Assembly: GCA_016875915.1 (NCBI GenBank)
Contig: VGOM01000002.1
Location: 23,263 to 87,262 of the forward strand
From: Chloroflexota bacterium
GTDB taxonomy: Bacteria; Chloroflexota; Dehalococcoidia; UBA2247; RBG-13-53-26
Direction of reading: 5' to 3'
Length of the DNA: 64,000 bases
Shown: piece after piece, positions 8,560-27,975 of the stretch
Position numbering within the stretch: the first letter of the stretch is position 1
Layout of the letters: every line of letters begins with the position of its first letter
Notes under the pieces: model-generated
The model's database searches: none
Seen by the model: only the letters and a program-made list of their open reading frames with translations
What the model was told of the DNA's origin: nothing
Program-made: the position numbers and the translations under genes

Positions 8560-9093
8560 CTAGTCCACCAGACTGATCTGGTCTCTGATCTCTTCCAGGG
8601 TCTGGGGCCCTATGCCCGGGACATTGAGAAGCTCATCGACGGTTCGGAACAGCACGTGTTCATTCCGGTAGTCCACAATGGCCTGAGCCTTCACCGGGCC
8701 GATGCCGTTTAGTGTCTCCAGTTCCTCCATCGTCGCGGTGTTGACATTGACCCTCTTCCCGACATCGGCTGGGCCAAACGGATCTTCGCCGGCATGAAGG
8801 ACATAGAGCTTGAGGCCAATTGGCTCCCCGGCGTCGGTGAGCCCACCGGCCCTCTCCAGGACGGCTTCCAGAGTGGTGTCCAAGCTGAAGGCGTAGATGC
8901 CTTCGCTGGCCAAGGCTCCGCTGAGGTAGATGTCGACCGGCGAAGCAGGCGGGGACGAACTGACCTCGATCTCAAGGGGCTTGGGGCGAGAGCTATGCTT
9001 GTAGGCCAGCACCGCGCCGCCGGCCACAAGGGCAACCATCAGGACGCCCAGCGCCAGCAGCCACCATTTCTGGTGGCTCCCGCTCTGGCTCAT
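8560..9093 (-). CDS. comEA: competence protein ComEA (helix-hairpin-helix DNA-binding)
   Basis: N-terminal TM helix, SLBB-like middle region, and a C-terminal tandem HhH motif (VNVNTATMEELETLNGIGPVKAQAIVDYR). Confidence 0.85.
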   Translation of the reverse strand: MSQSGSHQKWWLLALGVLMVALVAGGAVLAYKHSSRPKPLEIEVSSSPPASPVDIYLSGALASEGIYAFSLDTTLEAVLERAGGLTDAGEPIGLKLYVLHAGEDPFGPADVGKRVNVNTATMEELETLNGIGPVKAQAIVDYRNEHVLFRTVDELLNVPGIGPQTLEEIRDQISLVD

Positions 9094-9797
9094 CCAGCGG
9101 CATCCGCCTCGAGGACTATCCTGGCGTCAACAGCCACGGCCCCGTCCTTGTAGGCAAATACCGGATTGAGGTCGAGCTCCTTGATGACCGGATTCCGTTC
9201 CACGAAATCGGAGACCTTCAGAATCATATCCTCCAGAGCACCGACATCCGAGGGAGGCTGGCCCCGGTAGCCTTCGAGCACGGGATAGCCCTTGATGTCG
9301 CGGATCATCTCTCTGGCGTCCTTCCTCAGCAGAGGGACTATGCGGAAGGATACGTCCTTGAGGATCTCCACCAGTATGCCCCCCAGGCCGAACATGATCA
9401 CCGGCCCGAACTGGGCGTCCTTGGTCATGCCAATGATGGTCTCCACCCCTGGCTTGGCCATGGCCTGAACCGAAACACCGTGCACCGTGGCCTTGGGCTC
9501 CTTCTCCTTCACAGCGGCCATGATCTCCCGGTAGGCCTTGCTCACCTGGCTGGCGTTGCCAAGCCCCACCTTCACTCCGCCGATATCGCTCTTGTGAACT
9601 ATGTCCGGCGAGGCGACCTTGAGAACCACCGGGAAGCCCACTTCCCTGGCTATGGACGCGGCCTCCTTCATCGACCGGGCCAGTCTGGCCCTGATCACGT
9701 TTATGCCTGCTTCCTCAAGAACCTGCTTCGACTCGACCTCGGTGAGAAGGACCCTCTTCTCGCGTCTGGCGGCATCGACAGTAGCCTGAATACCCAT
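9090..9797 (-). CDS. ATP-grasp domain protein, similar to the ADP-forming acetyl-CoA synthetase beta subunit
   Basis: 235 aa consisting of an ATP-grasp_5-type domain only (EVESKQVLEEAGINV...GFPVVLK). Its stop overlaps the comEA start by 4 nt. Confidence 0.7.
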   Translation of the reverse strand: MGIQATVDAARREKRVLLTEVESKQVLEEAGINVIRARLARSMKEAASIAREVGFPVVLKVASPDIVHKSDIGGVKVGLGNASQVSKAYREIMAAVKEKEPKATVHGVSVQAMAKPGVETIIGMTKDAQFGPVIMFGLGGILVEILKDVSFRIVPLLRKDAREMIRDIKGYPVLEGYRGQPPSDVGALEDMILKVSDFVERNPVIKELDLNPVFAYKDGAVAVDARIVLEADAAG

Positions 9798-9892: not shown

Positions 9893-9935
9893 CGGAAAAA
9901 GGAGACTGGTACCCCCAACCAAGCGGAGGTACCAG
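9893..9935 (-). terminator. putative intrinsic terminator downstream of mvhA
   Basis: Minus-strand hairpin CUGGUACC...GGUACCAG followed by UCUCCUUUUUCC, about 30 nt after the mvhA stop. Confidence 0.45.
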
Positions 9936-9963
9936 TTATGCGCGACGCGTAAACGGCAGGAGT

Positions 9964-11427
9964 CTAGTCCCTCGATAGGGTACGGACCACCCTGCCTTCG
10001 CTGTCTCTGATATTGACCTGGAGTTGCATCTGGCCGGGCAACGCGTGGGTGGCGCAGGAGAGGCAGGGATCATAGGCCCGGAAGGCCATCTCCACCATAT
10101 TCAGGAAGCCTTCCTTCACCTCATGCCCCTTGACGAACCCCATGGCGGCCTTCTTCACCGAAAGGCAGATGGGCGCCGCGTTGTGCTGCGTGGCCACTAT
10201 CAGATTCACCTTCGTGATCAGACCGCGGTCATCGGTCTCATAGTGATGCAGCAGCGTGCCCCGGGCGGCCTCAACGCAGCCGATGCCGACCTTCTTCAGC
10301 TTCATATCCATGTTGCGGATGTCCTTGCCAGTCAGCAGAGGATCGCTGGCTATTCTCTGCAGATCCTCCGCGGCCTGCAAGGCCTCGATGAGCCGGGCCC
10401 AGTGGAAGGCCAGGGTGTGGTGGCTCGGCCTGCCTCCCAGCGTCTCAAACATCTGCTCGTATTCCTTGTGGGCCAGCGGCGTGGCCATCCCTTCAGCCAC
10501 GTTCAATCTCGCCAGCGGACCAACGCGGTACAGGGATGTACCGTCCCCTTCGATCAACCCGCTCCAGCCGACCTTCCTCAAATGGGTCAGTCTGATGTAT
10601 GTCCACGGCTCCACCCACTCTGCCATGTAGTCAACGTAGCGATGCGGGTCAAACAGGGCGCACTCCTTGCCCTGGGGATCCACGAGCCTGAGCTTGCCTT
10701 CGTAGAAGTTGGCCTTCTTGTCCTCATCCACCATACCCATGTAGTAGCTCTGGAGCTTGTAGGCATCGCTGAGCACCAGGTCAAGATAGGCCTTGTTCTC
10801 CAGGACAACGTCCTTGAACAGCTTCAGGGCAAAACGGGCGAACTCCACGGAATCGTCGGCCGTCTGCCTGATCCACTTCCTCTCCTCAACAGTGATCCCC
10901 CGGGACACGCCTCCGGGCAGCCCCCCCTCCGGATGAGGCGGCTTGCTGGCCACCAGCTTGATGATCTCGCGGCACCTCTTCCTTATGTCGATAACCTTGC
11001 CGCCGATCTCCAGTCCCACCTTCCTGATCACACCGATGATGTTCCTCTCGGCAGGGTCGGCGTCCGGCCCCACCACGAAGTCCGGCCCAGCGAGGAAGAA
11101 GAAGTGGATGTAGTGGTCCTCAACATAGAACGCATTGTAGTGGAGCTGCCTGATCAGCTTGGCCGTCGGCGTCGGTTCGACGCTGTACAGGTCATCCAGG
11201 GCTTTGGTGGCCGCCATGTTGTGCGGCGTGGGGCAAACCCCGCAGATGTTGGACACGATCCGGGGCATTTCCTCAGCTGGCCGGCCCAGGCAGAACCTCT
11301 CGAAACCCCTGAGCTCAACCACCTGCCAGTAGGCATCCTTTACATCTCCCTTGTCATCCAGGAAGATCTCGATCTTCCCATGCCCCTCGAGCCTGGTTAT
11401 CGGGTTTATGGTCAGTTTGCTGGTCAT
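9964..11427 (-). CDS. mvhA: [NiFe]-hydrogenase large subunit, group 3c (Mvh/Vhu-type)
   Basis: N-terminal RLEGHG and CGVCPTPH Ni-binding motifs and C-terminal DPCLSCATHAL, with a cleavable C-terminal extension. Confidence 0.92.
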   Translation of the reverse strand: MTSKLTINPITRLEGHGKIEIFLDDKGDVKDAYWQVVELRGFERFCLGRPAEEMPRIVSNICGVCPTPHNMAATKALDDLYSVEPTPTAKLIRQLHYNAFYVEDHYIHFFFLAGPDFVVGPDADPAERNIIGVIRKVGLEIGGKVIDIRKRCREIIKLVASKPPHPEGGLPGGVSRGITVEERKWIRQTADDSVEFARFALKLFKDVVLENKAYLDLVLSDAYKLQSYYMGMVDEDKKANFYEGKLRLVDPQGKECALFDPHRYVDYMAEWVEPWTYIRLTHLRKVGWSGLIEGDGTSLYRVGPLARLNVAEGMATPLAHKEYEQMFETLGGRPSHHTLAFHWARLIEALQAAEDLQRIASDPLLTGKDIRNMDMKLKKVGIGCVEAARGTLLHHYETDDRGLITKVNLIVATQHNAAPICLSVKKAAMGFVKGHEVKEGFLNMVEMAFRAYDPCLSCATHALPGQMQLQVNIRDSEGRVVRTLSRD

Positions 11428-11450
11428 AACTCAATGCTCCTCGTTCTCTT

Positions 11451-12416
11451 CTAGACTCTCTTCTTCCTCAAGAGGGATGTCGGCATCGAGAAGCGGTACA
11501 GGTAGCCGACGGGGTCGTCTATCCCGTCCATGACCTTCCTGATGTCCTCTTCCTTCTCGGCATCGACGATGGCCGCCAGGGCGGACACGAACTTGGCCCC
11601 GGAGTCCTCTACCCCCTCCACGGGTCCGAAGCAGCCCCGGCAGGGAAGATTGATATTGAGGCAAGCCTCTCCGCAGCCTGAGCGGGTGGCCGGTCCCAGG
11701 CAGAGCACGCCCTGCACCAGGAAACAGGTGTTGGGCTCCGCCTCGATCTGGTGGATCCTCTTGACCTCCTTGATGGTGAAACGGCTGGGTTTGGTCTTGT
11801 TGCGCGGACAGGTGTCGCACAGGGCTTTGTGCGGCGTCAGTGTCGAGCCCTTGGGGGGCAGCTTGCCTTCAAGGACGGCAGTCACCGCATTCATGATCAG
11901 GTCAGGAGGCGGGGGGCATCCCGGCAGGTAGTAGTCCACGTCGACGGCATGCTTGAGCGCATACACCTCACCGAAGAACTCCGGAAGCGTCAACTCCCGG
12001 CCATTCGAGGTGCATTTGGTCTGTGGGCGGCTGCCCTTGGGATTGACCACCGTTGGGGCGTCCCGGTACACCCAGTTGAAGATGTCTTCCTTCGTGGTCA
12101 GATTGGCCAGTCCGGGCGTCCCTCCAAAACAGGCGCAGGCTCCGAAGGCCAGCACCAACTGGGACTTCTTCCGGAGCAATCTGGCCACCTCTTCGTGATC
12201 GGAGTTCCTCACATTGCCGTTGATGATGCTCAGTGCGATCTCGCCGTCCTTCATGGCCTCCACGTGGTGGTACTTGAAGTCCAACGCCACCGGCCAGAGG
12301 ACGAAATCGACGGCGTCCACGACCTTGAGGACGGCCTCATTGATGTCCACGACAGCTTCGTCACAGCCCCCGCAGCCACCCAGCCAACAGATCGCCACTT
12401 TTGGTTTGTCTGCCAT
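11451..12416 (-). CDS. mvhG: [NiFe]-hydrogenase small subunit, group 3c
   Basis: Proximal-cluster Cys pattern (WLGGCGGCDEA...GACACFGG...LPGCPP) and a cytoplasmic type without a Tat signal. Confidence 0.9.
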   Translation of the reverse strand: MADKPKVAICWLGGCGGCDEAVVDINEAVLKVVDAVDFVLWPVALDFKYHHVEAMKDGEIALSIINGNVRNSDHEEVARLLRKKSQLVLAFGACACFGGTPGLANLTTKEDIFNWVYRDAPTVVNPKGSRPQTKCTSNGRELTLPEFFGEVYALKHAVDVDYYLPGCPPPPDLIMNAVTAVLEGKLPPKGSTLTPHKALCDTCPRNKTKPSRFTIKEVKRIHQIEAEPNTCFLVQGVLCLGPATRSGCGEACLNINLPCRGCFGPVEGVEDSGAKFVSALAAIVDAEKEEDIRKVMDGIDDPVGYLYRFSMPTSLLRKKRV

Positions 12417-12436
12417 CTTCGCTCCCTTTCACCAGT

Positions 12437-12862
12437 CTAGACCGCAGAGGCCTTCTCTGCGTGTTCCTTGGCCTTCTTCACCGGGCCCAGCTTGGCCAGC
12501 CTGTCGCTCATCTCCTTCACAATGGCGGGGATGGTCTTCCCCTCCGGGTCGAGAGACAGTCTGATCTCCAGCCTCTCCTTCTCGATTCCGTAGGATTCCA
12601 GCACCCGGCGCAGCAGATAGACCCTCTTCTTCGCCTCGAAGTTGCCGTCCTGGTAGTGACAATCGCCTTCCGGGCAGCCCAGGATCAGCACACCATCGGC
12701 ACCATGCTGGAAGGCACTGAGTATGTGGGTGGATTCGATCTTGCCGCTGCAGATGATGGGAATCCAGTTCTTCACCTGACGCGCCAGCGAGACCTCGTCA
12801 GCCACATAGCCCCAGCTAAACCTACAGGAGAAGCAGACCAACTTGGGTTCGTAGTTCTTCAT
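12437..12862 (-). CDS. mvhD: methyl-viologen-reducing hydrogenase delta subunit (MvhD) family protein
   Basis: FSCRFSWGY...ILGCPEGDCHYQDGN is the MvhD [2Fe-2S] signature. Confidence 0.85.
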   Translation of the reverse strand: MKNYEPKLVCFSCRFSWGYVADEVSLARQVKNWIPIICSGKIESTHILSAFQHGADGVLILGCPEGDCHYQDGNFEAKKRVYLLRRVLESYGIEKERLEIRLSLDPEGKTIPAIVKEMSDRLAKLGPVKKAKEHAEKASAV

Positions 12863-12895
12863 TTCTTCTCTCCCTAAGCCTCCTCTGGAGTAACT

Positions 12896-14686
12896 CTAGA
12901 GCGCGGCGCATGCCTCGAAGATGCGCTCTTCGGTGTCATCATCGACCAGCTTCCTGGCGTGTGACGGACAGGCCACTACGCACATGCCGCAGGACTTGCA
13001 CCGGAACATGTCCGTCGTCGATACGGTCTTGCCCTCCACATCGGTCAGCCTGGCCGAATCGTAGTTGCAGACATAGACACACATGCCGCAGCCACTGCAC
13101 CTCTTCTCGTCAACAGCCACCGAATAGAGCGACTTCTCAAAGCCTATGGAGATGCAGGCCTTGCAGGAAACGCACGGGCCGCAGGTGATACACCTCTTGG
13201 CCTCCTCCCTGGCTTCCTGCAGGGTGAAACCCTTCTCGAACAATTGGAAATGCATCCTCTTCTCAGGGGGTATCCAGGCTACCTCGGCTTCGGGCTTGTA
13301 GTCCCTCCTCAAGGGAATGCCAAACCCTTCGTAGTCCCTCTTCCGCCCCTCCCTCATGTCCAGGCCCCTGAGGAACCTCTCTATCGATTCAGCGGCGACC
13401 AATCCCTCCTTCATGGCCTCTACCATGAAGCCGATCCTCCTCACGTCGCCGCCCACAAAGACATAGCCCTTTCTCAGGCTCTGCAGGGTGAAGGGGTCCA
13501 CCACCAGCCGGCCCCGTTCGTCCAGTAGCCCCTCCCTCTGCAGGAAGGCCTTGTCCGGCACCTGCCCCACGGTGATGACCAGCATGTCACCTTCCATGTC
13601 GGTGCAGTCGGCACAGTCAAACTGGGGATTGAAGCCCTTTTCATCGAACACGCTGGTGCATTTGGGGCAGATGATCTTCTTGAATCTGCCGTGCTCACCA
13701 ACGATCTTCTGCACGCCGCGTGAGTACGTTATCGGTATCCCCTCTTCCCACGCCCCGCGGATTTCCTCCTCATCGGCAGGGATGCCATCCTTGGTGCCTT
13801 TGTCCTCACTCTCCAGACAGATGATGCTCACATCTCCACCCAGCCTCCTGGCCGTCCTGGCCACATCGAAGGCCACGTTGCCACCTCCGATGACCACCAG
13901 CCTCTTGCCCTTGAAGTAGTCCGCGGTGATATTGCCATGACTGACCTCATAGAGAAGGGTGTGGCCGTACATCACCCCGGACAGATCCTGCCCTTCCACG
14001 ACCTCTCCGTCGAAGGTCAGCACCCGGGGGTACGGCGTCCCCTTGGCCAGGAAGACAGCCCTGTAGCCTTCGTTTCTCAGCCTCTCCATCGTCAGTCGGC
14101 CCTCACCGACCCTGGACCCGAACTTGACGTCTATCCCGGCGATCCGCACCAGGCTGTCCATGGTGGTGGTCAGGACATCCTCCGGCAGGCGGTAGTTCGG
14201 TATGAGCCAAAGCGCGCCTCCCAGCCGCTTGGACTCCTCGAATATGGTCACCCGGTAGCCCTTCCTGCTCAGGGCATAGGCACACATCAGTCCGCCCGGC
14301 CCGCCACCGATGATGGCGATGTTCTCCTTGTCCTTGACGATGCTCAGTTCCTCTTTCTGTTTCAGATGCGGAGTGTAGTGATCAGAGAGGAACCTCTTGA
14401 GCAGCCTCCGCCTGATCGCCCCACCCTTGTTCTTGTAGTTGCACTCCAGCTCGCACAGTCCGCAGATATAGCCGCAGACGTTGAAGAAGGGATTCTTCTC
14501 ATACAGATAGTCGCCAATCTGAATGACCTCGTTCTTGGCCTGCTCCAACTCCTCCGGCAGCAGCGAGATGAGCACATTCGTCCGCTGGATGTCCTCGTTG
14601 ATGGGGCACTTGATCTGGCACGGTGGCAGGAGCTGCTTCATGGCTTCCTCAACCCGGGCCACTCCCTTGCTTTCGGTCCTCCACAT
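12896..14686 (-). CDS. GltD/NfnB/SudA-like FAD- and NAD(P)-binding oxidoreductase fused to a C-terminal poly-ferredoxin
   Basis: An N-terminal 2x[4Fe-4S] Cys region typical of GltD; two Rossmann GGG motifs (IIGGGPGG, VVIGGGNVAFD); and a C-terminal triple CxxCxxCxxxCP ferredoxin. GGAGG RBS. It is the first gene of the mvhD-G-A operon. Confidence 0.75.
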   Translation of the reverse strand: MWRTESKGVARVEEAMKQLLPPCQIKCPINEDIQRTNVLISLLPEELEQAKNEVIQIGDYLYEKNPFFNVCGYICGLCELECNYKNKGGAIRRRLLKRFLSDHYTPHLKQKEELSIVKDKENIAIIGGGPGGLMCAYALSRKGYRVTIFEESKRLGGALWLIPNYRLPEDVLTTTMDSLVRIAGIDVKFGSRVGEGRLTMERLRNEGYRAVFLAKGTPYPRVLTFDGEVVEGQDLSGVMYGHTLLYEVSHGNITADYFKGKRLVVIGGGNVAFDVARTARRLGGDVSIICLESEDKGTKDGIPADEEEIRGAWEEGIPITYSRGVQKIVGEHGRFKKIICPKCTSVFDEKGFNPQFDCADCTDMEGDMLVITVGQVPDKAFLQREGLLDERGRLVVDPFTLQSLRKGYVFVGGDVRRIGFMVEAMKEGLVAAESIERFLRGLDMREGRKRDYEGFGIPLRRDYKPEAEVAWIPPEKRMHFQLFEKGFTLQEAREEAKRCITCGPCVSCKACISIGFEKSLYSVAVDEKRCSGCGMCVYVCNYDSARLTDVEGKTVSTTDMFRCKSCGMCVVACPSHARKLVDDDTEERIFEACAAL

Positions 14687-14788: not shown

Positions 14789-14815
14789 GGGAGAGCCCCC
14801 GCTGCGGGCTCTCCC
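14789..14815 (-). promoter_or_regulatory. perfect 10-bp GC-rich stem-loop with a downstream U-run, in the leader/upstream region of the hydrogenase operon
   Basis: Minus-strand GGGAGAGCCC-gcagcgg-GGGCUCUCCC followed by GUUCGUUUUUGCGG, about 100 nt upstream of the ATG at 14686. This is terminator-like geometry in a 5' region. Confidence 0.35.
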
Positions 14816-14978
14816 TGAGTAGCTGCTGAGCGAATACCTTGATGGCACCGTGGAAATCCACCCTTTATTGTAGGGCAGTGGCCCGCACAATGCAAAACCA
14901 GTGTACTCGACCTCCGCATTTGACCGCGGGGTCGGCCCTCTTCAGTACTAGGTGCTCGCCCGGGGGACACGGTGTGCC

Positions 14979-15421: not shown

Positions 15422-16690
15422 GTGGGGCATATTGCCATGGTTAACGGCGCAGTAGCACCGTTCACAGGCGGCAACGAGGCTGAATGGGCCAGGTACCTCG
15501 AGAGGCTGCTCAAGACCGAGAGAGACCGCCTGATGTCGATCCTCAACTCCATGGAGGAGGGGGTCACCATCATCGGGCCGGACCACAAGATCCGGTTCAT
15601 GAACCCCAGCATGATGCGTCAGTTTGGTGACGGCACTGGCCTCCCCTGCTACAGACACCTCCGTGGCTACGATCAGCCCTGCCCCGACGTCTGCAGACTG
15701 CCGGAGGTGGTCAAGGGTGCTACGGAGCGATGGGAACACAGCTTTCCGGAAGGGGTGACCTACGAGGTGATCTCCTCCCCCTTTGCCGATACGGATCAGA
15801 CACCCTGCATGCTGTCAACGTTCAGGAATGTCACTCAGCAGAAGCAGATCCAGCTTGAGCTGATCAGGCTGAACCAGCTCAGATCAGAGGTCCTGGCCCA
15901 GATAACCAAGGACCTGGATCAGACCTCACATGAGGTGGTCCGCCTGCAGGAGGAGAAGCGCCGTTTCGTCCGCTTCCTGAGCGCCGTGGTACACGATCTC
16001 CGCGCTCCTCTGGCAGTCACTCAGAGCTGTCTGTGGACAATCCTGGAGGGCTACACCGGCGACGTCAACGACGAACAGAAGGACCTCCTGCAGAGGGGCA
16101 CCAGAAGGATCAATGACCTGATGGCACTTGTTGACGATCTGCTGGACATCCCCCGCATCGAATCGGGTCAACTGGTTCACGAGATGCAGGGCGTCTCCGT
16201 GAACGAAGTTGTCCGCCGGGCGCTCGATGGTCTGGACAGCCTGGCCGCAGAGAAGGGCATCAAGCTGGAGACGGCGCTGCCCGCCGTGACCCCCAGGGTC
16301 CATGGGTCAGCCCGGAGGCTGCAGCAGGTGGTCACCAATCTGGTGAACAACGCCATCGCCTACACCAACAAAGGGCAAGTGACGGTCAAGGTCTCTGAAG
16401 ACAACGGCAACGTCAAGGTTGAAGTCATGGACAGCGGCATCGGCATACCGGCGGACGATCTGTCGCGGCTCTTCGAGGATTTCTTCCGGGCCAGCAATGT
16501 GTCGGCCAAGGGTACCGGACTGGGACTGTCAATATCGAAGAGGATTGTCGAGGCCCATGGAGGCAGAATCTGGGTGGAGAGCCCGTGCCCCGAGACCAAG
16601 AAGGGCAGCAAGTTCAGCTTCACCCTGCCCAAGAGGACCGCGGTGCTGGCCGACGGAACAGCCAATGGGAATACTGGCAGACCTGCTTGA
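15422..16690 (+). CDS. cytoplasmic PAS-domain sensor histidine kinase with conserved 4-Cys PAS motif
   Basis: No TM helix. PAS domain with C-x10-C-x3-C...PCML; HisKA (AVVHDLRAPL) and HATPase_c (GTGLGLSISKRIVEAHGG). Paralog of the kinase at 23659. Confidence 0.85.
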   Translation: MGHIAMVNGAVAPFTGGNEAEWARYLERLLKTERDRLMSILNSMEEGVTIIGPDHKIRFMNPSMMRQFGDGTGLPCYRHLRGYDQPCPDVCRLPEVVKGATERWEHSFPEGVTYEVISSPFADTDQTPCMLSTFRNVTQQKQIQLELIRLNQLRSEVLAQITKDLDQTSHEVVRLQEEKRRFVRFLSAVVHDLRAPLAVTQSCLWTILEGYTGDVNDEQKDLLQRGTRRINDLMALVDDLLDIPRIESGQLVHEMQGVSVNEVVRRALDGLDSLAAEKGIKLETALPAVTPRVHGSARRLQQVVTNLVNNAIAYTNKGQVTVKVSEDNGNVKVEVMDSGIGIPADDLSRLFEDFFRASNVSAKGTGLGLSISKRIVEAHGGRIWVESPCPETKKGSKFSFTLPKRTAVLADGTANGNTGRPA

Positions 16691-16724
16691 GCCTGCCATA
16701 TAATTGTGAAGGAGGTAGGAGGCG

Positions 16725-17204
16725 ATGGAGAAGAAAGCCAAGATCCTGCTGATCGACGACGATCCCGACTTCGTGGAGGTAACCAGGAAGGTCCTGGAAA
16801 AGGGCGAGTCCTACCAGGTCGTCATTGCCGTCAACGGCAAGGAGGGCCTAGAGAAGGCCAAGAAGGAGAAGCCTGACCTCATCCTCCTGGACATCCTCAT
16901 GCCGGTGACAGATGGCTTCGGCTTCGCGGAACAGTTCAGCAAAGAGAGGTCACTGCGCAACATCCCCGTCCTGGCTCTGACCAGCTTCTCCACCTCTCTC
17001 GGGGAGCCATTTGCCTTTGACGTGGCGGAATTCATCAGGAAGCCCGTCGGCCCCCGAGACCTGATCGAGAGGGTGGAGAAGCACCTCAAACGAGCCGCAG
17101 AGAAGGCAGAGACGCGCGCTGTCAAGGTAAGCCCCAAGAGGCGTCCGGCCTCAGCCAAGCCCAGGCCGAAGGCCCCGGCCAGGACCAGCAAGCGTCCCAA
17201 GTAG
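16725..17204 (+). CDS. response regulator, receiver domain only, with a Lys/Pro/Ala-rich basic C-terminal tail
   Basis: CheY-like receiver (LLIDDDPDF...DLILLDILMP...) and then KVSPKRRPASAKPRPKAPARTSKRPK. Confidence 0.85.
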   Translation: MEKKAKILLIDDDPDFVEVTRKVLEKGESYQVVIAVNGKEGLEKAKKEKPDLILLDILMPVTDGFGFAEQFSKERSLRNIPVLALTSFSTSLGEPFAFDVAEFIRKPVGPRDLIERVEKHLKRAAEKAETRAVKVSPKRRPASAKPRPKAPARTSKRPK

Positions 17205-17275: not shown

Positions 17276-18430
17276 GTGTCCACCATAGTCGTATCGCCTT
17301 TCAAGGAAGCCATCGATGCCGTTGTGGAGGCGGGGGGCAAGGCTCTGAAGCAGTGCTACCAGTGCGGCCTGTGCACCGGCACATGTCCGTGGAACCTGGT
17401 GAAGAGCTTCCCCACCCGCAAACTGATCCATCAGTCCCAGCTTGGCGCCGCCGACTTCGAGAGTGAGGATACCTGGACGTGCGCCACGTGCCGGGCATGC
17501 GTGGCCCGCTGCCCCAGGGGGGTGGCCATCATAGACATAATGAAGGCCCTCCGCGGAGTGATCGTGGGCATGGGGGCCGGCTATGTGCCGGACGGCCTGC
17601 GGGTGACCCTGAAGAACATCGCCGGAACGGGCAATCCTCTGGGCGAATCAGCGGAGAAGCGGACGGACTGGGCCAAGGACCTGGAGATCGCCCCTTTCAC
17701 CAGTGACACCGAGGTGCTCTACTTCTCCTGCTGCATCCCGGCCTACGACCCCAACATCAAGAGGGTGGCCAGGGCCACGGCGGCGATCCTCAAGAAGGCC
17801 GGGGTCAGCTTCGGTATGCTCGGCCCCCGGGAGAGCTGCTGCGGCGAGAGCGTGCGCAAGGCGGGAAACGAGAGCCTGTTCCAGACGCTGGCTCAGAGCA
17901 ACATCAGCGCCTTCGTGGAGAGAGGCGTGAAGAAGATCGTGGTCAGCTCTCCACACTGCTACCACACATTCAAGAATGAATACCCCGAGCTGGGCAGCAG
18001 CTTCGAGGTGACCCATCTCACCCAGTACCTTGCCGGACTGATCAGGGAGGAGCGGCTGAAGCCGAAGAAGGAACTGAACTTGAAGGTGACCTATCATGAT
18101 CCCTGCTACCTTGGGCGCCACAACAGCGTCTACGACGAACCCAGAGAGATCCTGACGAAGATCCCGGGGCTGGACCTCGTGGAGATGGCTGAGTGCCGAG
18201 AGAACAGCCTCTGCTGCGGAGGGGGCGGGAGCAGGATATGGCAGGAGACCAAGAAGGGCGAGAGGCTGTCCGATCTACGGCTGGACCAGGCGGTGGCCAC
18301 AGGGGCCAGCGTGCTGTCCACAGCCTGCCCCTACTGCATGCTCAACTTCGAGGACAGCATACTCACATCCAACAAGGGCGATATGATCAAGTTGAAGGAG
18401 ATCTCGGAACTGGTTCTGGAAGCCCTGTAG
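17276..18430 (+). CDS. heterodisulfide reductase subunit D-like protein (HdrC-like 2x[4Fe-4S] ferredoxin fused to an HdrB-like double CCG domain)
   Basis: CGLCTGTCP / CATCRACVARCP, then two CCG motifs (FSCCIPAYDP...CCGES and YHDPCYLGRHN...LCCGGGG). GTG start with an AGGAAGAGAGG RBS. Confidence 0.8.
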   Translation: MSTIVVSPFKEAIDAVVEAGGKALKQCYQCGLCTGTCPWNLVKSFPTRKLIHQSQLGAADFESEDTWTCATCRACVARCPRGVAIIDIMKALRGVIVGMGAGYVPDGLRVTLKNIAGTGNPLGESAEKRTDWAKDLEIAPFTSDTEVLYFSCCIPAYDPNIKRVARATAAILKKAGVSFGMLGPRESCCGESVRKAGNESLFQTLAQSNISAFVERGVKKIVVSSPHCYHTFKNEYPELGSSFEVTHLTQYLAGLIREERLKPKKELNLKVTYHDPCYLGRHNSVYDEPREILTKIPGLDLVEMAECRENSLCCGGGGSRIWQETKKGERLSDLRLDQAVATGASVLSTACPYCMLNFEDSILTSNKGDMIKLKEISELVLEAL

Positions 18431-18454
18431 CGAACGCGCAAGGAGATTCTGACC

Positions 18455-20452
18455 ATGGCCAGGATAGGCGTCTTCATCTGCCACTGCGGCACCAACATCG
18501 CCGGCACCGTCGACATCGGCCGTGTGGTTGAGGCAGCCGGTCAGATGCCTATGGTGGTCCACGCCGCCGACAACAAGTACAACTGCAGCGAACCGGGGCA
18601 AGCCCTGATCCGCGACGCCATCGCGGAGCACAGGCTGAGCCGGGTGGTCATCGCCGCCTGTTCGCCGCGGATGCACGAGAATACCTTCCGCAAGACCGTG
18701 GCTGCCGCGGGGCTGAACCCGTATCTGCTGGAGATGGCCAATCTGCGTGAGCACTGCAGCTGGGTCCACAGCGATGGGAAGGAAGCGGCCACCACCAAAG
18801 CCATCGAGCTGATCCGGATGGCCGTGTCCAAGGTGGCCCGCCACGAGAAGCTCTTCCCGAAGCAGGTGTCCCTCACCAAGCGGGCACTGGTCATTGGTGG
18901 GGGCATCTCGGGCATCCAGGCGGCCCTGGACATCGCCAATTCCGGCTACAAGGTGGTCCTGGTCGAGCGCGAGCCGACCATCGGCGGCCGCATGGCCCAA
19001 CTGGACAAGACATTCCCTACCCTGGACTGCTCCTCGTGCATCCTCACGCCCAAGATGGTGGATGTGGCCCAGCATGCCAACATCACCCTGCTGACCAGCG
19101 CGGAGGTGAAAGAGGTCAAGGGCTTCGTGGGCAATTTCGAGGTGAGCATTGTCCAGAAGGCCAGGAAGGTTGACCATGCCAAGTGCACCGGGTGCGGAAT
19201 ATGCTGGCAGAAATGCCCGGAGAAGGCCCCCTCGGAGTTCGACATGGGTCTGGGGAAGCGCTCCGCCATCTACATCCCCTTCCCGCAGGCGGTGCCGCCG
19301 AAGCCGGTGATTGACACCGCCAACTGCCGCTACCACAAACACCTGCGCTTCGTGGAGGAGAAGCGGGAGGGCAAGCCGCCACCCCAGTGCCGCGTCTGCG
19401 AGAAACTCTGCCCGGTGGGCGCCATTGACTGGGAGCAGAAGGACGAAGTCCTGACGGAGAAATTCGGAGCCATCATTGTGGCCACGGGCTACAAGGCCTT
19501 CGAGCCCGCGGTCTATGCAGAGCTGGGCTACGGCAAGCACCCCGACGTGATCACCGGACTGGAGATGGAGAGGATGATGAGCGCCTCCGGGCCAGCCGGC
19601 GGCGACGTGACCCGTCCCTCCAACGGCGAGCATCCCAGGGACGTGGTCTTCCTCACGTGCATTGGCTCCAGGGATGAACAGAGGGGCCGGACCTACTGCA
19701 GCAAGGTCTGCTGCATGTACATCGCCAAACACGCCATCATACTGAAGGAGCACTATCCGGACGTGCAGTGCTACGTCTTCTACATGGACGTCCGGGCAGT
19801 GAGCAAGGACTACGAGGAATTCTACAAGCGGGCCCAGGAGAGCGGCGCCATATACATCCGGGGCAAGGTGTCGGGAATACGGCAGGAGGATGGCCGGCTC
19901 GTCGTGCGGGGCGAGGACACGCTGCTGGGGGAGATGGTCGAGATCCCGGCCGATATGGTAGTGCTGGCCGTGGGCATGGAGCACAGTCCGGGATCGGCCG
20001 AGTTGGCCCAGGCCTTGAAGGTCAGCTATGACATCAACGAGCTGTTCATCGAGGCCCACCCCAAGCTGCGTCCCGTGGAGACGATGAGCGATGGGGTCTT
20101 TGTGGCCGGAGCCTGCGTGGGCCCCCGGGACATCCCTGAATCGGTAGCCAGCGGGAGCGCCGCCGCCGCCAAGGTGGCTGCCCTATTCAGCCAGGAATTC
20201 CTCACCACCGACCCCATGGTGGCCAGTGTGGACCAGATGAAATGCGGCGGCTGCCTGCTGTGCACCAAGGTCTGCCCCTTCAAGGCCATCGACACTCAGG
20301 TACTCCGGGATGGCCGGACCGTGGCCGTGGTCAACGAGAGCCTGTGCAAGGGCTGCGGCCTGTGTGTTGCCACCTGCCGGTTCGGTGCGGCCAACCTGCG
20401 CGGGTTCACGCAGCAGCAGCTGCTGGCTGAGGTGACATCTCTATGGCAATAG
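18455..20452 (+). CDS. hdrA: heterodisulfide reductase subunit A-like flavoprotein
   Basis: N-terminal GVFICHCGTNIAGTVD motif, FAD motif VIGGGISGIQAALD, an inserted ferredoxin and a C-terminal ferredoxin (CGGCLLCTKVCP...CKGCGLCVATC). Confidence 0.9.
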   Translation: MARIGVFICHCGTNIAGTVDIGRVVEAAGQMPMVVHAADNKYNCSEPGQALIRDAIAEHRLSRVVIAACSPRMHENTFRKTVAAAGLNPYLLEMANLREHCSWVHSDGKEAATTKAIELIRMAVSKVARHEKLFPKQVSLTKRALVIGGGISGIQAALDIANSGYKVVLVEREPTIGGRMAQLDKTFPTLDCSSCILTPKMVDVAQHANITLLTSAEVKEVKGFVGNFEVSIVQKARKVDHAKCTGCGICWQKCPEKAPSEFDMGLGKRSAIYIPFPQAVPPKPVIDTANCRYHKHLRFVEEKREGKPPPQCRVCEKLCPVGAIDWEQKDEVLTEKFGAIIVATGYKAFEPAVYAELGYGKHPDVITGLEMERMMSASGPAGGDVTRPSNGEHPRDVVFLTCIGSRDEQRGRTYCSKVCCMYIAKHAIILKEHYPDVQCYVFYMDVRAVSKDYEEFYKRAQESGAIYIRGKVSGIRQEDGRLVVRGEDTLLGEMVEIPADMVVLAVGMEHSPGSAELAQALKVSYDINELFIEAHPKLRPVETMSDGVFVAGACVGPRDIPESVASGSAAAAKVAALFSQEFLTTDPMVASVDQMKCGGCLLCTKVCPFKAIDTQVLRDGRTVAVVNESLCKGCGLCVATCRFGAANLRGFTQQQLLAEVTSLWQ

Positions 20453-20874
20453 ACTTCGAACCCAGGATTGTGGGCTTCCTCTGCAACTGGTGCAGCTACG
20501 CCGGGGCTGATATGGCCGGCACGGCACGGATCTGCTACCCCTCGAACATCCGCGTCATCAGGGTGCCCTGCTCGGCCAGGATCGACCCCCTCCTGGTGGT
20601 CAAGGCCTTTCAACTCGGCGCCGACGGCGTGCTGGTGGCGGGCTGCCACCCCGGCGACTGCCACTACACCGAAGGTAACTACTACTCCCGGCGCCGCTTC
20701 GCGCTGCTCTATCCCTTCCTGGAATACCTCGGCATCGAGAAAGGCCGGCTCCGACTGGAATGGGTGTCAGCCTCCGAAGGGAGGAAGTTCTCACATGTGG
20801 TGTCCTCCTTCACCGAGGGCCTGGTCAGCCTGGGCCCCCGGGAGAAGGTCCCGGCAGAAGGAGCGCTGCCATGA
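20443..20874 (+). CDS. MvhD/FlxD-like [2Fe-2S] protein
   Basis: FLCNWCSYAGADMAG...VAGCHPGDCHY. Overlaps the hdrA stop by 10 nt and the next gene by ATGA. Confidence 0.85.
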   Translation: MAIDFEPRIVGFLCNWCSYAGADMAGTARICYPSNIRVIRVPCSARIDPLLVVKAFQLGADGVLVAGCHPGDCHYTEGNYYSRRRFALLYPFLEYLGIEKGRLRLEWVSASEGRKFSHVVSSFTEGLVSLGPREKVPAEGALP

Positions 20875-27385: not shown

Positions 27386-27410
27386 CGGGCGGCGAAGCCC
27401 CCGTTTCTTT
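27386..27410 (+). terminator. putative intrinsic terminator after the Cys-rich protein gene
   Basis: GC-rich hairpin CGGGCGGC-gaa-GCCCCCG followed by UUUCUUU, ~95 nt after the stop. Confidence 0.35.
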
Positions 27411-27462
27411 GGATAAGGGATCTGGTTCCGCGGCTCGTGCGGCACCGCTTAGGAGGCAAGGG

Positions 27463-27975
27463 ATGACCAAGGCCGAACTAGAATCACTGGTGAAGAGAGA
27501 GGCTGGCACAGGGTACGCCCCCCGCATCTTCAGGGACATCCAGAAGGTCATTGAAGACACCGGAGGGCGGTCGGGGGCATTGATCAGAGTCCTGCAGCAA
27601 GCCCAGGGACTGGTGGGGTATCTGCCGCCGCCGGTGCTCATGACCATCTCCAGGGACCTGAACATACCTCTCAGCGAAGTGAACGGCATAGTCAGTTTCT
27701 ACAGCTTCTTCACCACCGTTCCCCGCGGGAAGTATGTCGTTCAGGTGTGCCTGGGTACATGCTGCTACGTCAGAGGCGGGCAGAGGATCCTGGATGTCCT
27801 GAAGAAGGAGTACGGGCTTGAACCCGGCGATACGTCGCCTGACGGACTGCTGTCCGTGGACACCATCCGCTGTCTGGGGGCCTGCGCCCTGGCCCCGGTG
27901 GTTACTCTGGACGGACAGGTGCACAGAAGGGTGAAGGCCACCGGTGTGAAAGAACTAGTCAGCCACTGCAAATAG
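27463..27975 (+). CDS. hoxE: NuoE-like [2Fe-2S] thioredoxin-fold diaphorase subunit (HoxE/HndA-like)
   Basis: CLGTCC...C...C motif of NuoE/24-kDa-subunit type. Start at MTKAELESL, with an AGGAGG RBS. Confidence 0.85.
   Translation: MTKAELESLVKREAGTGYAPRIFRDIQKVIEDTGGRSGALIRVLQQAQGLVGYLPPPVLMTISRDLNIPLSEVNGIVSFYSFFTTVPRGKYVVQVCLGTCCYVRGGQRILDVLKKEYGLEPGDTSPDGLLSVDTIRCLGACALAPVVTLDGQVHRRVKATGVKELVSHCK

What the first reader, a model, noticed from the sequence alone, without database searches (positions are those of the whole stretch)
9964..14686. Non-canonical group-3c-like [NiFe] hydrogenase: MvhADG with a GltD/NfnB-like flavoprotein-polyferredoxin in place of HdrABC
The operon on the minus strand is flavoprotein(596 aa)-mvhD-mvhG-mvhA, with short intergenic gaps and a terminator after mvhA. 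MvhD normally docks Mvh onto HdrA. Here the partner is instead a protein with GltD-type N-terminal Fe-S clusters, two dinucleotide-binding GGG motifs and a C-terminal triple ferredoxin. This resembles the bifurcating NfnB/SudA flavoprotein more than HdrA, which lacks the CHCG.NI motif. It suggests an H2:NAD(P)+/ferredoxin electron-bifurcating or confurcating NiFe hydrogenase of unusual composition.
Basis: partly seen in the sequence, partly recalled or inferred. Interest (0 to 1): 0.7.

Follow-up and report, generated by a model that had tools for sequence, protein, structure and literature searches.

The report
NADH-linked flavoprotein partner for Mvh-type hydrogenase
This is a real four-gene operon, conserved across Dehalococcoidia, for a soluble nickel-iron hydrogenase whose usual heterodisulfide-reductase partner is replaced by a glutamate-synthase-like flavoprotein, so it most likely just interconverts H2 and NAD(P)H and probably does not split electrons.

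Summary
The four minus-strand genes exist exactly as described: flavoprotein 12896-14686, mvhD 12437-12862, mvhG 11451-12416 and mvhA 9964-11427. The gaps are 33, 20 and 23 nt, and a hairpin with a T-run follows mvhA.

The same gene order is present in all 45 related Chloroflexota loci, as far as each contig reaches. A Nitrospiraceae contig has it with the flavoprotein fused to MvhD.

The hydrogenase is not group 3b. Its small subunit and MvhD are Mvh-type. Its large subunit scores about equally against MvhA and the large subunit of the A. mobile NiFe-HydABCSL hydrogenase.

The flavoprotein is not HdrA. In sequence and predicted fold it is closest to the NADPH-input domain of the NfnABC/StnABC transhydrogenases. 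It shares their lysine cluster ligand where bifurcating NfnL has glutamate. It also shares their RCxxC motif placed after the flavin domain. Acidic residues replace the NADPH-specific YRR motif, which suggests NADH.

"In place of HdrABC" needs nuance. A genuine HdrA, an HdrD-like protein and a second MvhD lie 2.6 kb away on the other strand.

Best reading: a linear H2:NAD(P)+ oxidoreductase. Bifurcation is not excluded. The gene cluster appears in many public assemblies, but I found no paper describing this partner.

The parts
12896..14686 (-). 596-aa FAD/Fe-S flavoprotein with a GltD/NfnL fold. Parts: an N-terminal GltD-type Fe-S domain (Cys23, 27, 71, 75, 78, 82 and Lys97); an FAD Rossmann motif (GGGPGG at 127); an NAD(P)H Rossmann motif (GGGNVA at 267, followed by CLESEDK instead of YRR); a five-Cys motif (499-511); and a 2x[4Fe-4S] ferredoxin domain (530-573).
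   Evidence: Pfam and NCBIfam. PDB sequence hits: 9n5u_A 2.1e-51, 5jca_L 4.4e-46, 8oh5_C 2.1e-38. AF2 model with pLDDT 88.8. Foldseek best matches 9n5u_A, 9bov_A and 8oh5_C with TMq 0.70-0.73. 19 Cys and K97 are invariant in 42 orthologues.
12437..12862 (-). MvhD-like [2Fe-2S] adaptor subunit (141 aa). Its N-terminus is divergent: the canonical CCxxC is replaced by C-x-S-C-x-x-S.
   Evidence: PF02662 FlpD 3.8e-30. 5odc_D 1.9e-25. Cys10, 13, 38, 63 and 68 are conserved in 43 orthologues. 38% identical to the second MvhD in the window.
11451..12416 (-). MvhG-type long small subunit (321 aa), predicted to carry three [4Fe-4S] clusters.
   Evidence: VhuG 2.5e-62. 5odc_E 2e-65 over the full length, against 2.6e-20 and 3.6e-18 for the short Bfu/Hox small subunits. 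12 Cys are invariant and one more (Cys167) is 97% conserved.
9964..11427 (-). [NiFe] large subunit (487 aa). It has the N-terminal CGVC (Cys62/65) and C-terminal DPCLSC (Cys455/458) metal ligands, and a 25-residue tail after His461 that implies endopeptidase processing.
   Evidence: VhuA 3.3e-114. PDB: 7t2r_D 1.8e-110, 5odc_F 6.6e-107, 5xf9_D 3.5e-94, SHI about 1e-20. Motifs shown. Cys conservation.
9905..9936 (-). Terminator-like hairpin (13 pairs) plus T-run, immediately after mvhA.
14867..14896 (-). Sigma-70-like promoter candidate upstream of the flavoprotein gene (9 of 12 consensus positions). This is a weak consensus match only.
15422..17204 (+). Histidine kinase (422 aa) and a stand-alone receiver-domain response regulator (159 aa), divergent from the operon. 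This pair lies beside the hydrogenase cluster in 22 of the 45 related loci.
   Evidence: Pfam. Synteny. A 57%-identical flavoprotein carries a fused receiver domain (P0121).

Best explanation
The operon encodes a soluble cytoplasmic four-subunit [NiFe]-hydrogenase.

Proposed path: H2 is split at the Ni-Fe site of the large subunit. Electrons pass through the three [4Fe-4S] clusters of the MvhG-type small subunit to the [2Fe-2S] cluster of MvhD. MvhD docks on the C-terminal ferredoxin domain of the 596-aa flavoprotein. From there electrons run along a single wire of about five [4Fe-4S] clusters to FAD, which reduces NAD(P)+ by hydride transfer. The reaction is reversible.

The flavoprotein is therefore a pyridine-nucleotide module plugged into an Mvh-type hydrogenase through MvhD. 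It works like the NADPH-input domain of NfnABC/StnABC. The enzyme would be functionally analogous to NAD(P)-linked group 3b/3d hydrogenases, not to the bifurcating Mvh-Hdr complex. The nucleotide is more likely NADH than NADPH in this lineage.

Shown here: gene content, conservation, domain and fold relationships, conserved ligands, and fusion of the flavoprotein with MvhD in relatives. Inferred: the docking site, the linear wire, the nucleotide preference and the absence of bifurcation.
For: - The operon is tight.
- The cluster is present, in the same order and strand, in all 45 related loci as far as each contig reaches. It also occurs in a Nitrospiraceae-type contig as flavoprotein::MvhD - small subunit - large subunit - HycI.
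- Fusion evidence: 27 of the 150 nearest representatives carry an MvhD domain, nearly always at the C-terminus after the ferredoxin domain. That is the same order as in HdrA::MvhD fusions (NCBIfam HdrA2 model).
- The C-terminal ferredoxin domain matches the C-terminal ferredoxin domain of HdrA (5odc_A residues 575-632, 5.6e-11; the window's own HdrA residues 591-641, 7e-9). VhuD binding to HdrA involves the N- and C-terminal regions of HdrA (PMC13518236).
- The predicted fold (pLDDT 88.8) superposes best, and over about 615-640 alignment columns, on NfnA/StnC of the Bfu-type transhydrogenases (TMq 0.70-0.73). It aligns over only about 450 columns with NfnL/NfnB (TMq 0.61).
- In StnC and Tsi NfnA this domain carries a non-bifurcating FAD that feeds a linear cluster chain (PMC10482914; PMC12018979).
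- K97 is invariant in 42 orthologues. It aligns with the Lys ligand K170 of StnC and K165 of Tsi NfnA, where bifurcating NfnL has Glu.
- 19 invariant Cys plus K97 give 20 ligands, enough for five [4Fe-4S] clusters.
- YRR is replaced by C-L-E-S, with L291 and E292 each conserved in 41 of 42 orthologues. The window's other GltD module and the Nitrospiraceae orthologue keep YRR.
- Related fused modules sit beside MetV-MetF in 5 of 5 contigs examined, which fits a general NAD(P)H module that plugs into different catalytic units through MvhD.
Against: - There are no biochemical data for any member.
- The Lys-versus-Glu ligand and the domain order correlate with non-bifurcation in only two solved enzyme types. 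The cited authors say the functional meaning of the ligand is unclear.
- Five clusters are more than a minimal wire needs and could form a branch to ferredoxin.
- The conserved Arg near the flavin N5 (R166) is present, as in both bifurcating and non-bifurcating relatives, so it does not discriminate.
- HdrA/HdrD-like genes lie nearby in the window. An HdrD-like gene lies directly upstream on the same strand in 5 loci, so a larger complex is possible.
- The NADH preference rests on one sequence motif plus remembered NADH-GOGAT motifs. It was not tested.
Confidence: 0.55

Rival explanations
1. An Nfn-like bifurcating or confurcating hydrogenase. The FAD of the flavoprotein would be a three-way junction. 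The MvhD [2Fe-2S] cluster, fed by H2 through MvhAG, would play the part of the NfnS [2Fe-2S] branch. The [4Fe-4S] clusters would lead to ferredoxin, and NAD(P)(H) would bind at the flavin. Net reaction: H2 + reduced ferredoxin + 2 NAD(P)+ <-> 2 NAD(P)H, or the reverse at low H2.
For: The flavoprotein belongs to the NfnL/NfnB fold family (5jca_L 4.4e-46, 4ylf_B 6.7e-37; TMt 0.76-0.77). It carries three more [4Fe-4S] clusters than a GltD-type module, including a ferredoxin-like domain that could be a ferredoxin-facing exit. The Arg that contacts flavin N5 in NfnB is conserved (R166). MvhD is elsewhere always part of bifurcating Hdr-type assemblies. At environmental H2 pressures the H+/H2 couple is close to the NAD+/NADH couple, so H2 could thermodynamically replace NADH in an Nfn-type reaction (established thermodynamics, my inference).
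Against: The cluster next to FAD has a Lys ligand, not the Glu of NfnL. The RCxxC motif is permuted, and the best fold match is the non-bifurcating NfnA/StnC domain. MvhD is fused after the ferredoxin domain in relatives, which suggests a position at the far end of the wire and not beside the FAD. The NADPH motif is lost, and an NADH-based version is thermodynamically less sensible. The window already encodes a Bfu-type [NiFe] hydrogenase with NuoE/NuoF modules, a more obvious candidate for bifurcation.
Confidence: 0.2
2. The hydrogenase is part of a larger Hdr-type complex. MvhADG plus the flavoprotein would work with the HdrD-like CCG protein, or with the neighbouring HdrA/Flx proteins, to couple H2 or NAD(P)H oxidation to reduction of a disulfide (a DsrC-like or unknown thiol), possibly with bifurcation. 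This would be a variant of Mvh-Hdr or Flx-Hdr.
For: The window has an HdrD-like protein (17276-18430), HdrA (18455-20452), a second MvhD (20443-20874) and AsrA/HydB-like and HydG/AsrB-like Flx-type subunits, 2.6 kb from the operon. An HdrD-like gene lies directly upstream on the same strand in L013, L022, L030, L038 and L045. A Dehalogenimonas comparative study lists an 8-gene 'Vhu type + CoB-CoM heterodisulfide reductase (Vhu-Hdr complex)' locus. A Chloroflexi survey reports group 3c hydrogenases next to hdr and etf genes.
Against: HdrA lies next to the cluster only in the window and its closest relative L035. The HdrD-like gene is adjacent in 5 of the 45 related loci (6 counting L035, where it is divergent). 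The four-gene core is present in every locus as far as the contig reaches. The Hdr/Flx operon in the window is divergently transcribed, is separated by a two-component system, and has its own MvhD and its own NAD(P)H module, so it looks self-contained. The Nitrospiraceae version has no hdr gene in the 7.4-kb contig.
Confidence: 0.15
3. The flavoprotein is an ordinary glutamate-synthase small subunit, or an unrelated oxidoreductase, that merely happens to lie next to mvhDGA.
For: Sources annotate homologues as 'NADPH-dependent glutamate synthase beta subunit-like oxidoreductase' or 'FAD-dependent oxidoreductase'.
Against: Every GltD-type NCBIfam model scores far below its cut-off. No gltB gene is adjacent. 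Strict synteny holds across 45 related loci with 20-33 nt gaps. Relatives are fused to MvhD.
Confidence: 0.02

Closest known systems
MvhADG/VhuADG-HdrABC ([NiFe] group 3c, methanogens; PDB 5ODC)
   Same: It has MvhD (5odc_D 1.9e-25), a long three-cluster small subunit (5odc_E 2e-65) and a large subunit scoring 6.6e-107 against MvhA. MvhD probably docks on a ferredoxin domain homologous to the C-terminal ferredoxin domain of HdrA.
   Different: The partner flavoprotein is not HdrA. It has no CxCGxNI motif, and no HdrA model matches it apart from the ferredoxin domain. The conserved cluster has no HdrB or HdrC. The MvhD N-terminal cysteine motif is altered. The large subunit is no closer to MvhA than to the large subunit of the A. 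mobile NiFe-HydABCSL hydrogenase (7t2r_D).
NfnL-like (GltD-like) domain of NfnA/StnC in the Bfu-type transhydrogenases NfnABC/StnABC (PDB 9N5U, 9BOV, 8OH5)
   Same: These are the best sequence and fold matches. They share the Lys ligand of the FAD-proximal cluster, the RCxxC motif placed after the flavin domain, and a following Fe-S stretch that continues the wire.
   Different: The window protein has no N-terminal [2Fe-2S] domain, no Fdh/NuoG-like domain and no NuoE/NuoF (BfuBC) partners in the operon. It has a ferredoxin domain and MvhD instead. Its NADPH motif YRR is replaced by CLES.
NfnL/NfnB of the bifurcating NfnSL (NfnAB) transhydrogenase (PDB 5JCA, 4YLF)
   Same: Same fold for residues about 20-440 (TMt 0.76-0.77). 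It has FAD and NAD(P)H Rossmann motifs and two GltD-type clusters.
   Different: Lys replaces the Glu ligand. The RCxxC motif is permuted. The operon has no NfnS/NfnA partner. There are about 150 extra C-terminal residues carrying about three more clusters, and no YRR motif.
[FeFe] hydrogenase group A2 (GltD-linked) in the HydDB classification
   Same: The logic is the same: a hydrogenase whose partner gene encodes a GltD-like pyridine-nucleotide flavoprotein (PMC5037454).
   Different: The catalytic subunit is unrelated ([FeFe] versus [NiFe]), and MvhD is not involved.
HdrL-MvhD of sulfate reducers and syntrophs (Desulfobacterium autotrophicum, Syntrophobacter fumaroxidans)
   Same: A GltD-like NAD(P)H-binding unit is genetically coupled to MvhD (PMC2702500; PMC5947623).
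   Different: HdrL contains a full HdrA moiety, which the window protein lacks. The HdrL-MvhD loci described in those two papers are not reported next to mvhGA.
NAD(P)-linked soluble [NiFe] hydrogenases, groups 3b (sulfhydrogenase) and 3d (Hox)
   Same: The proposed net reaction is the same: H2 + NAD(P)+ <-> NAD(P)H.
   Different: The diaphorase modules differ (HydBG in 3b, HoxEFU in 3d). The 3b large subunit scores only about 75 bits. The 3d-type small subunit is short. Neither type has an MvhD.

Membership tests
[NiFe] hydrogenase group 3c (Mvh/Vhu type) | Large subunit with N-terminal RxCGxC and C-terminal DPCxxC Ni-Fe ligands | tested here: met
   CGVC at Cys62/65 and DPCLSC at Cys455/458, invariant in 36 orthologues.
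[NiFe] hydrogenase group 3c (Mvh/Vhu type) | Large subunit groups with MvhA/VhuA and not with other group 3 subgroups | tested here: inconclusive
   Bit scores are 373 for 7t2r_D (A. mobile NiFe-HydABCSL), 361 for MvhA, 319 for HoxH, at most 116 for Frh and about 75 for SHI. VhuA scores 382 bits in NCBIfam, below the cut-off of 800. No reference phylogeny or HydDB run was possible.
[NiFe] hydrogenase group 3c (Mvh/Vhu type) | Long MvhG-type small subunit with three Fe-S clusters | tested here: met
   5odc_E scores 224 bits over residues 6-315. The short Hox/Bfu small subunits score 69-76 bits. 12 Cys are invariant.
[NiFe] hydrogenase group 3c (Mvh/Vhu type) | MvhD [2Fe-2S] subunit encoded with the hydrogenase | tested here: met
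   FlpD 3.8e-30 and 5odc_D 1.9e-25. Four Cys are invariant and a fifth (Cys10) is 98% conserved.
[NiFe] hydrogenase group 3c (Mvh/Vhu type) | Functional partner is HdrABC (heterodisulfide reductase) | tested here: not met
   The conserved cluster has no hdrA, hdrB or hdrC. HdrA is adjacent only in the window and L035, on the other strand. Physical association cannot be tested with these tools.
[NiFe] hydrogenase group 3b (sulfhydrogenase) | Large subunit close to HydA/ShyA, with HydB (AsrA-like) and HydG (AsrB-like) partners in the operon | tested here: not met
   HydA 1.9e-22 and ShyA 1.2e-41, against VhuA 3.3e-114. PDB SHI about 1e-20. The AsrA/AsrB-like genes in the window belong to the separate Hdr/Flx operon.
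HdrA | N-terminal CxCGxNI cluster motif and a full-length match to HdrA models | tested here: not met
   The flavoprotein has no such motif, while the window's true HdrA has CHCGTNI at residue 9. Apart from a short FAD Rossmann stretch (HdrA model, residues 116-162, 6.6e-10), HdrA models match only the ferredoxin domain (HdrA2, residues 517-590, 7.9e-11).
NfnL/NfnB (bifurcating subunit of NfnSL) | GltD-like fold with FAD and NADPH sites and two [4Fe-4S] clusters | tested here: met
   5jca_L 4.4e-46. Foldseek TMt 0.76-0.77, rmsd about 3 A.
NfnL/NfnB (bifurcating subunit of NfnSL) | Glu as the fourth ligand of the FAD-proximal [4Fe-4S] cluster | tested here: not met
   The aligned residue is Lys97 (LKRF), where Pfu NfnL has LERF. 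It is invariant in 42 orthologues. The role of the ligand is described in PMC12018979.
NfnL/NfnB (bifurcating subunit of NfnSL) | NfnS/NfnA partner (PyrK-like, FAD plus [2Fe-2S]) encoded alongside | tested here: not met
   The operon holds only mvhD, mvhG and mvhA.
NfnL/NfnB (bifurcating subunit of NfnSL) | The FAD actually bifurcates | not testable with these tools
   This needs enzymology or spectroscopy.
NfnL-like domain of Bfu-type NfnA/StnC | Lys-ligated proximal cluster, RCxxC after the flavin domain, and best structural match | tested here: met
   (TMq 0.70-0.73 over 615-640 alignment columns).
NfnL-like domain of Bfu-type NfnA/StnC | Embedded in a NuoG/Fdh-like subunit and partnered with NuoE/NuoF-like BfuBC | tested here: not met
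   The 596-aa protein has no such domains and the operon has no such genes. They do occur in the window's second hydrogenase cluster.
Glutamate synthase small subunit (GltD) | Scores above the GltD family cut-offs and is paired with GltB | tested here: not met
   TIGR01317 scores 113 bits against a cut-off of 448, and TIGR01318 scores 139 against 483. No gltB gene is adjacent.

The most novel reading that the evidence does not exclude
The flavoprotein-ferredoxin-MvhD unit is a previously unrecognised, widespread, portable redox module. It would connect NAD(P)H, and possibly ferredoxin through an Nfn-like bifurcating FAD, to interchangeable catalytic partners. With MvhGA it would give an H2-dependent Nfn analogue, in which the hydrogenase replaces NfnS. 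With MetVF it would give a new type of methylene-THF reductase. In Dehalococcoidia its activity may additionally be controlled at the protein level by a receiver-domain protein, because in one lineage the receiver domain is fused to the flavoprotein.
Probability: 0.2. Interest if true: 0.8.

Novelty: new variant of a known kind. Interest (0 to 1): 0.55.

Why it matters
Group 3c hydrogenases outside methanogens are routinely annotated as 'heterodisulfide-reductase-linked, bifurcating', and metabolic models of Chloroflexota inherit that assumption.

Here the conserved partner is a pyridine-nucleotide flavoprotein. If that holds, this very common Dehalococcoidia enzyme is probably a direct H2:NAD(P)+ link. 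Homologues of its flavoprotein number in the thousands in metagenomes.

That would explain how obligate H2-oxidising organohalide respirers, whose complex I lacks the NADH-input module NuoEFG (PMC6005880), could make reduced pyridine nucleotides.

The related fusions next to MetVF bear on the open question of the electron donor of MetVF-type methylene-THF reductases.

None of this is proven. It is a clear, testable target in cultivable Dehalococcoides and Dehalogenimonas, if their 'Vhu' operon is confirmed to be the same.

Tried and rejected
1. The first AlphaFold run used 24 close homologues and gave an unusable model (pLDDT 38). A second run with 81 diverse sequences worked.
2. Model coordinates are not exposed to the script sandbox. 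Cys-cluster geometry and the wire topology could therefore not be measured. No multimer prediction was possible.
3. I tried to tie the operon directly to cultured Dehalococcoides mccartyi. A second homologue search with the L039 flavoprotein returned only uncultured Dehalococcoidia. Searches for the locus tags DET0612-0616 found only one mention of DET0615 as a Vhu subunit. The link to 'Vhu' therefore rests on three things: papers naming VhuA/VhuG; the Dehalogenimonas 8-gene 'Vhu-Hdr' locus; and MAGs labelled Dehalococcoidaceae that carry the cluster.
4. Literature searches for MvhD with GltD, NfnB, glutamate synthase, group 3c or MvhADG in Dehalococcoidia found no paper describing this partner. 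The library lacks most subscription journals, so absence is weak evidence.
5. Rfam and tRNA scans of the window found nothing, so the hairpin in the 5' leader has no known RNA family.
7. Plain GltD, with adjacency by chance, was considered and rejected (see rivals).
8. No HycI-type maturation protease was found anywhere in the window by tblastn.

Full report
**1. Observation**

The minus strand between 9964 and 14686 carries four consecutive ORFs of 596, 141, 321 and 487 aa, at exactly the coordinates given. The gaps between them are 33, 20 and 23 nt, and each gap holds a purine-rich ribosome-binding site. A 13-bp hairpin with a T-run lies at 9936-9905, right after the last gene. A weak sigma-70-like site lies at 14896-14867, upstream of the first gene.

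Pfam and NCBIfam assign the last three ORFs to MvhD/FlpD (3.8e-30), VhuG (2.5e-62) and VhuA (3.3e-114). The first ORF has a GltD-like architecture: Fer4_20, then Pyr_redox_2 with two Rossmann motifs, then a C-terminal 4Fe-4S dicluster domain.

**2. Conservation**

A scan of one genome per species found 46 loci. Of these, 45 are close relatives and one (L046) is only a 24% match. In every one of the 45, tblastn finds flavoprotein-mvhD-mvhG-mvhA in the same order and strand as far as the contig reaches. All four genes are seen in 39 of them. Flavoprotein identity is 62-94%.

Nearly all are Dehalococcoidia/Chloroflexota MAGs. Five are labelled Dehalococcoidaceae. Two are filed under unrelated taxa and are probably mis-binned.

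The flavoprotein alone has 3893 homologues at E<=1e-20 among the 8000 candidates scored. The best 120 are all about 80-95% identical and 596-597 aa long. The exact protein occurs on a 58-kb JGI metagenome contig (sample 3300020083).

A histidine kinase and receiver-only response regulator pair (window 15422-17204) lies next to the cluster in 22 of the 45 loci. A HycI-type protease lies next to it in 13 loci, but none is present in this window.

**3. Which hydrogenase**

Sulfhydrogenase large subunits score about 75 bits, against 361 bits for MvhA (NCBIfam scores).

The small subunit is unambiguously Mvh-type. It matches 5odc_E over its full length at 224 bits, against 69-76 bits for the short Hox/Bfu small subunits. 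MvhD matches 5odc_D at 1.9e-25.

The large subunit is about equidistant from the A. mobile NiFe-HydABCSL large subunit (373 bits) and MvhA (361 bits), with HoxH at 319. For contrast, the window's second hydrogenase large subunit scores 611, 413 and 481 bits against the same three.

So the enzyme has group-3c architecture. The subgroup placement of the large subunit still needs a reference phylogeny.

MvhD is a divergent variant. The canonical CCxxC has become C-x-S-C-x-x-S, but Cys13, 38, 63 and 68 are invariant and Cys10 is 98% conserved in 43 orthologues.

**4. What the flavoprotein is**

It is not HdrA. It lacks the CxCGxNI motif, which the genuine HdrA in the window has at residue 9. Apart from a short FAD Rossmann stretch (residues 116-162), HdrA models match only residues 517-590, the ferredoxin domain.

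Its closest solved relatives by sequence are:
- Thermococcus sibiricus NfnA of NfnABC (9n5u_A, 2.1e-51)
- Pyrococcus NfnL (5jca_L, 4.4e-46)
- Caldicellulosiruptor NfnA (9bov_A, 3.4e-39)
- Sporomusa StnC (8oh5_C, 2.1e-38; this alignment runs to residue 573)

An AlphaFold model built on 81 diverse sequences is confident (pLDDT 88.8, pTM 0.87). Foldseek ranks 9n5u_A, 9bov_A and 8oh5_C first, with TMq 0.70-0.73 over 615-640 alignment columns. NfnL and NfnB follow with TMq 0.61 over about 450 columns.

Three sequence features separate the two kinds of relatives:

(a) *The proximal-cluster ligand.* The residue aligned with the non-cysteine ligand of the FAD-proximal cluster is Lys97 (LKRF), invariant in 42 orthologues. 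StnC has K170 and Tsi NfnA has K165 at this position. Bifurcating NfnL has Glu.

(b) *The RCxxC motif.* It opens the NfnL sequence, but here it lies after the flavin domain (Cys499/502), as in StnC and NfnA.

(c) *The nucleotide motif.* The YRR(S/T) stretch after the second Rossmann strand is present in NfnL, StnC, NfnA and the window's own second GltD module. Here it is C-L-E-S-E-D-K, with L291 and E292 each conserved in 41 of 42 orthologues. The Nitrospiraceae orthologue keeps YRRT. An acidic residue at that position is typical of NADH-specific Rossmann folds. NADH-dependent glutamate synthases have a similar 'LE' there, as far as I recall, but I did not test this.

In StnC the FAD was shown experimentally not to bifurcate, and to feed a linear cluster chain (PMC10482914). 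The same role is assigned to the FAD of Tsi NfnA (PMC12018979).

The 19 invariant Cys plus K97 give 20 ligands, enough for five [4Fe-4S] clusters. By my assignment these are two GltD-type clusters, one extra cluster and two ferredoxin-type clusters.

**5. Link to MvhD**

A search of 1.84 billion cluster representatives shows that beyond the orthologous clade, many relatives at 33-43% identity are about 700-aa proteins with an MvhD domain fused to the C-terminus, after the ferredoxin domain. 27 of the top 150 carry an MvhD-like domain.

The nearest such fusion is P0123, 43% identical, whose cluster includes a Nitrospiraceae protein. On its contig it is followed by a 330-aa small subunit (55% identical to the window's MvhG), a 485-aa large subunit (68% identical) and HycI. 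This hydrogenase type therefore crosses phyla.

The ferredoxin domain is homologous to the C-terminal ferredoxin domain of HdrA. That domain precedes MvhD in HdrA::MvhD fusions. [quoted passage not shown]

I infer that MvhD docks there, and that electrons run MvhD -> ferredoxin domain -> extra cluster -> GltD-type clusters -> FAD -> NAD(P)+.

**6. The module is portable**

Five more distant fusions were examined on their contigs: P0135, P0193 from a Bacillota MAG, P0309, P0316 and P0332. In four of them the fusion is directly followed by MetV (DUF5981) and MetF. In the fifth (L052) a fused DUF5981-MTHFR gene lies directly upstream on the opposite strand. Two of the five contigs also carry CODH/ACS genes.

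The flavoprotein-MvhD unit therefore behaves as a pyridine-nucleotide module that plugs into different catalytic partners.

**7. The 'in place of HdrABC' claim**

The window also encodes, divergently and 2.6 kb away:
- an HdrD-like CCG protein (17276-18430)
- a bona fide HdrA (18455-20452, 8e-256 to the HdrA2 model)
- a second MvhD (20443-20874)
- AsrA/HydB-like and HydG/AsrB-like subunits

This is a Flx-Hdr-type cluster with its own MvhD and its own NAD(P)H module.

Among the related loci, HdrA is adjacent only in L035. An HdrD-like gene lies directly upstream on the same strand in five loci. A Dehalogenimonas study lists an 8-gene 'Vhu-Hdr complex' locus. A Chloroflexi survey describes group 3c hydrogenases next to hdr and etf genes.

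A larger Hdr-containing complex is therefore a live rival. However, the invariant core is the four genes.

**8. Verdict on mechanism**

The most economical reading is a linear, reversible H2:NAD(P)+ oxidoreductase, probably NADH-linked in this lineage. I give this about 0.55.

In its favour, the fold family is right and there are surplus clusters. Against it, the discriminating features point the other way, and the same window holds a Bfu-type [NiFe] hydrogenase that is a better bifurcation candidate.

Participation in an Hdr-type complex gets about 0.15.

**9. Novelty**

The genes are abundant in public data. They probably correspond to the cytoplasmic 'Vhu' hydrogenase long listed for Dehalococcoides and Dehalogenimonas. 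I could not verify that link directly.

I found no paper that identifies the partner as a GltD/NfnA-type flavoprotein, or that describes the flavoprotein::MvhD module. The nearest published concepts are HdrL-MvhD and the GltD-linked [FeFe] group A2.

I rate it a new variant of a known kind, of moderate interest.

Noticed in passing
window 27409-35128 (+): A second soluble [NiFe] hydrogenase cluster of Bfu/Hox type. It has a NuoE-like protein (188 aa), a 1051-aa fusion, a NuoG/Fdh-like protein (659 aa), a short small subunit (178 aa), and a large subunit scoring 611 bits to the A. mobile NiFe-HydABCSL large subunit. The fusion combines a NuoE-like [2Fe-2S] domain, NuoF, and a GltD-like module with the YRRE NADPH motif and LKRF Lys. 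It looks like a hybrid of a bifurcating NiFe-HydABCSL and an Stn/NfnABC transhydrogenase. The same cluster lies next to the flavo-mvhDGA cluster in L015-L019, L025 and L044.
   Followed up: partly
window 17276-23550 (+): A Flx-Hdr-type operon: an HdrD-like CCG protein, HdrA (with the CHCGTNI motif), a second MvhD/FlxD, an Fe-S protein, an AsrA/HydB-like protein and a HydG/AsrB-like NAD(P)H flavoprotein. The start codons of the overlapping ORFs at 20760-22720 were not resolved.
   Followed up: partly
window 15422-17204 (+); P0121; L057 6001-8175: The kinase and receiver-only regulator pair travels with the hydrogenase cluster in 22 of the 45 related loci. In one lineage (57% identical flavoprotein, 724 aa) a receiver domain is fused to the C-terminus of the flavoprotein, followed by mvhD and the small and large subunit genes. 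This hints at protein-level control of the enzyme by phosphorylation signalling. The window's regulator has no DNA-binding domain, only a Lys/Pro/Ala-rich basic tail.
   Followed up: partly
L052-L056 (contigs carrying P0135, P0193, P0309, P0316, P0332): About 700-aa GltD-like::ferredoxin::MvhD fusion proteins lie next to MetV (DUF5981) and MetF (MTHFR) in 5 of 5 contigs examined. Two of the contigs also carry CODH/ACS genes. This may be an undescribed type of methylene-THF reductase complex without HdrABC.
   Followed up: partly
window 14789-14815 (-): A 10-bp GC-rich hairpin followed by GTTCGTTTTT lies between the promoter-like site and the flavoprotein start codon, about 100 nt upstream of the ATG. 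It could be a leader or attenuator, or the terminator of an upstream small gene. It has no Rfam match.
   Followed up: partly
window flavoprotein residues 340-361 (within 12896-14686): A CxxC...CxxC insertion (Cys340, 343, 358, 361; 74-100% conserved) lies within the long beta-strands (334-348, 351-365) of the NAD(P)H domain in the model. It is absent from NfnL, NfnA and StnC. It may be a zinc or rubredoxin-like site.
   Followed up: no
window 15422-16690 (+), N-terminal about 150 residues of the kinase: The kinase has no predicted membrane part in Pfam. Its N-terminal sensor region contains four cysteines (…LPCYRHLRGYDQPCPDVCRLP… and …TPCML…). This recalls Fe-S or redox-sensing PAS domains. 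Only some related loci keep this N-terminal region.
   Followed up: no
window 9964-11427 versus the whole window: The large subunit has a 25-residue C-terminal tail after His461, implying endopeptidase maturation. No HycI-like protease was found in the 64-kb window. In 13 related loci a HycI gene lies directly beside the cluster.
   Followed up: yes
L039, L020: Two loci with the full Dehalococcoidia-type cluster (76% and 75% identical flavoprotein) are filed under 'Candidatus Methanolliviera sp.' and 'Bacteroidales bacterium UBA5621'. This is probably mis-binning and not transfer.
   Followed up: no
L051 (Ca. Desulfofervidus auxilii CP013015.1, 23555-35342): A 595-aa relative (41% identical) with the five-Cys motif but Glu instead of Lys at the ligand position stands alone. 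It has no hydrogenase, mvhD or metVF gene nearby.
   Followed up: partly
window 9090-9797 (-): An ATP-grasp_5 protein (the beta-like part of an ADP-forming acyl-CoA synthetase) lies immediately downstream of the hydrogenase terminator with its own promoter-like site. It is also adjacent in L002.
   Followed up: no
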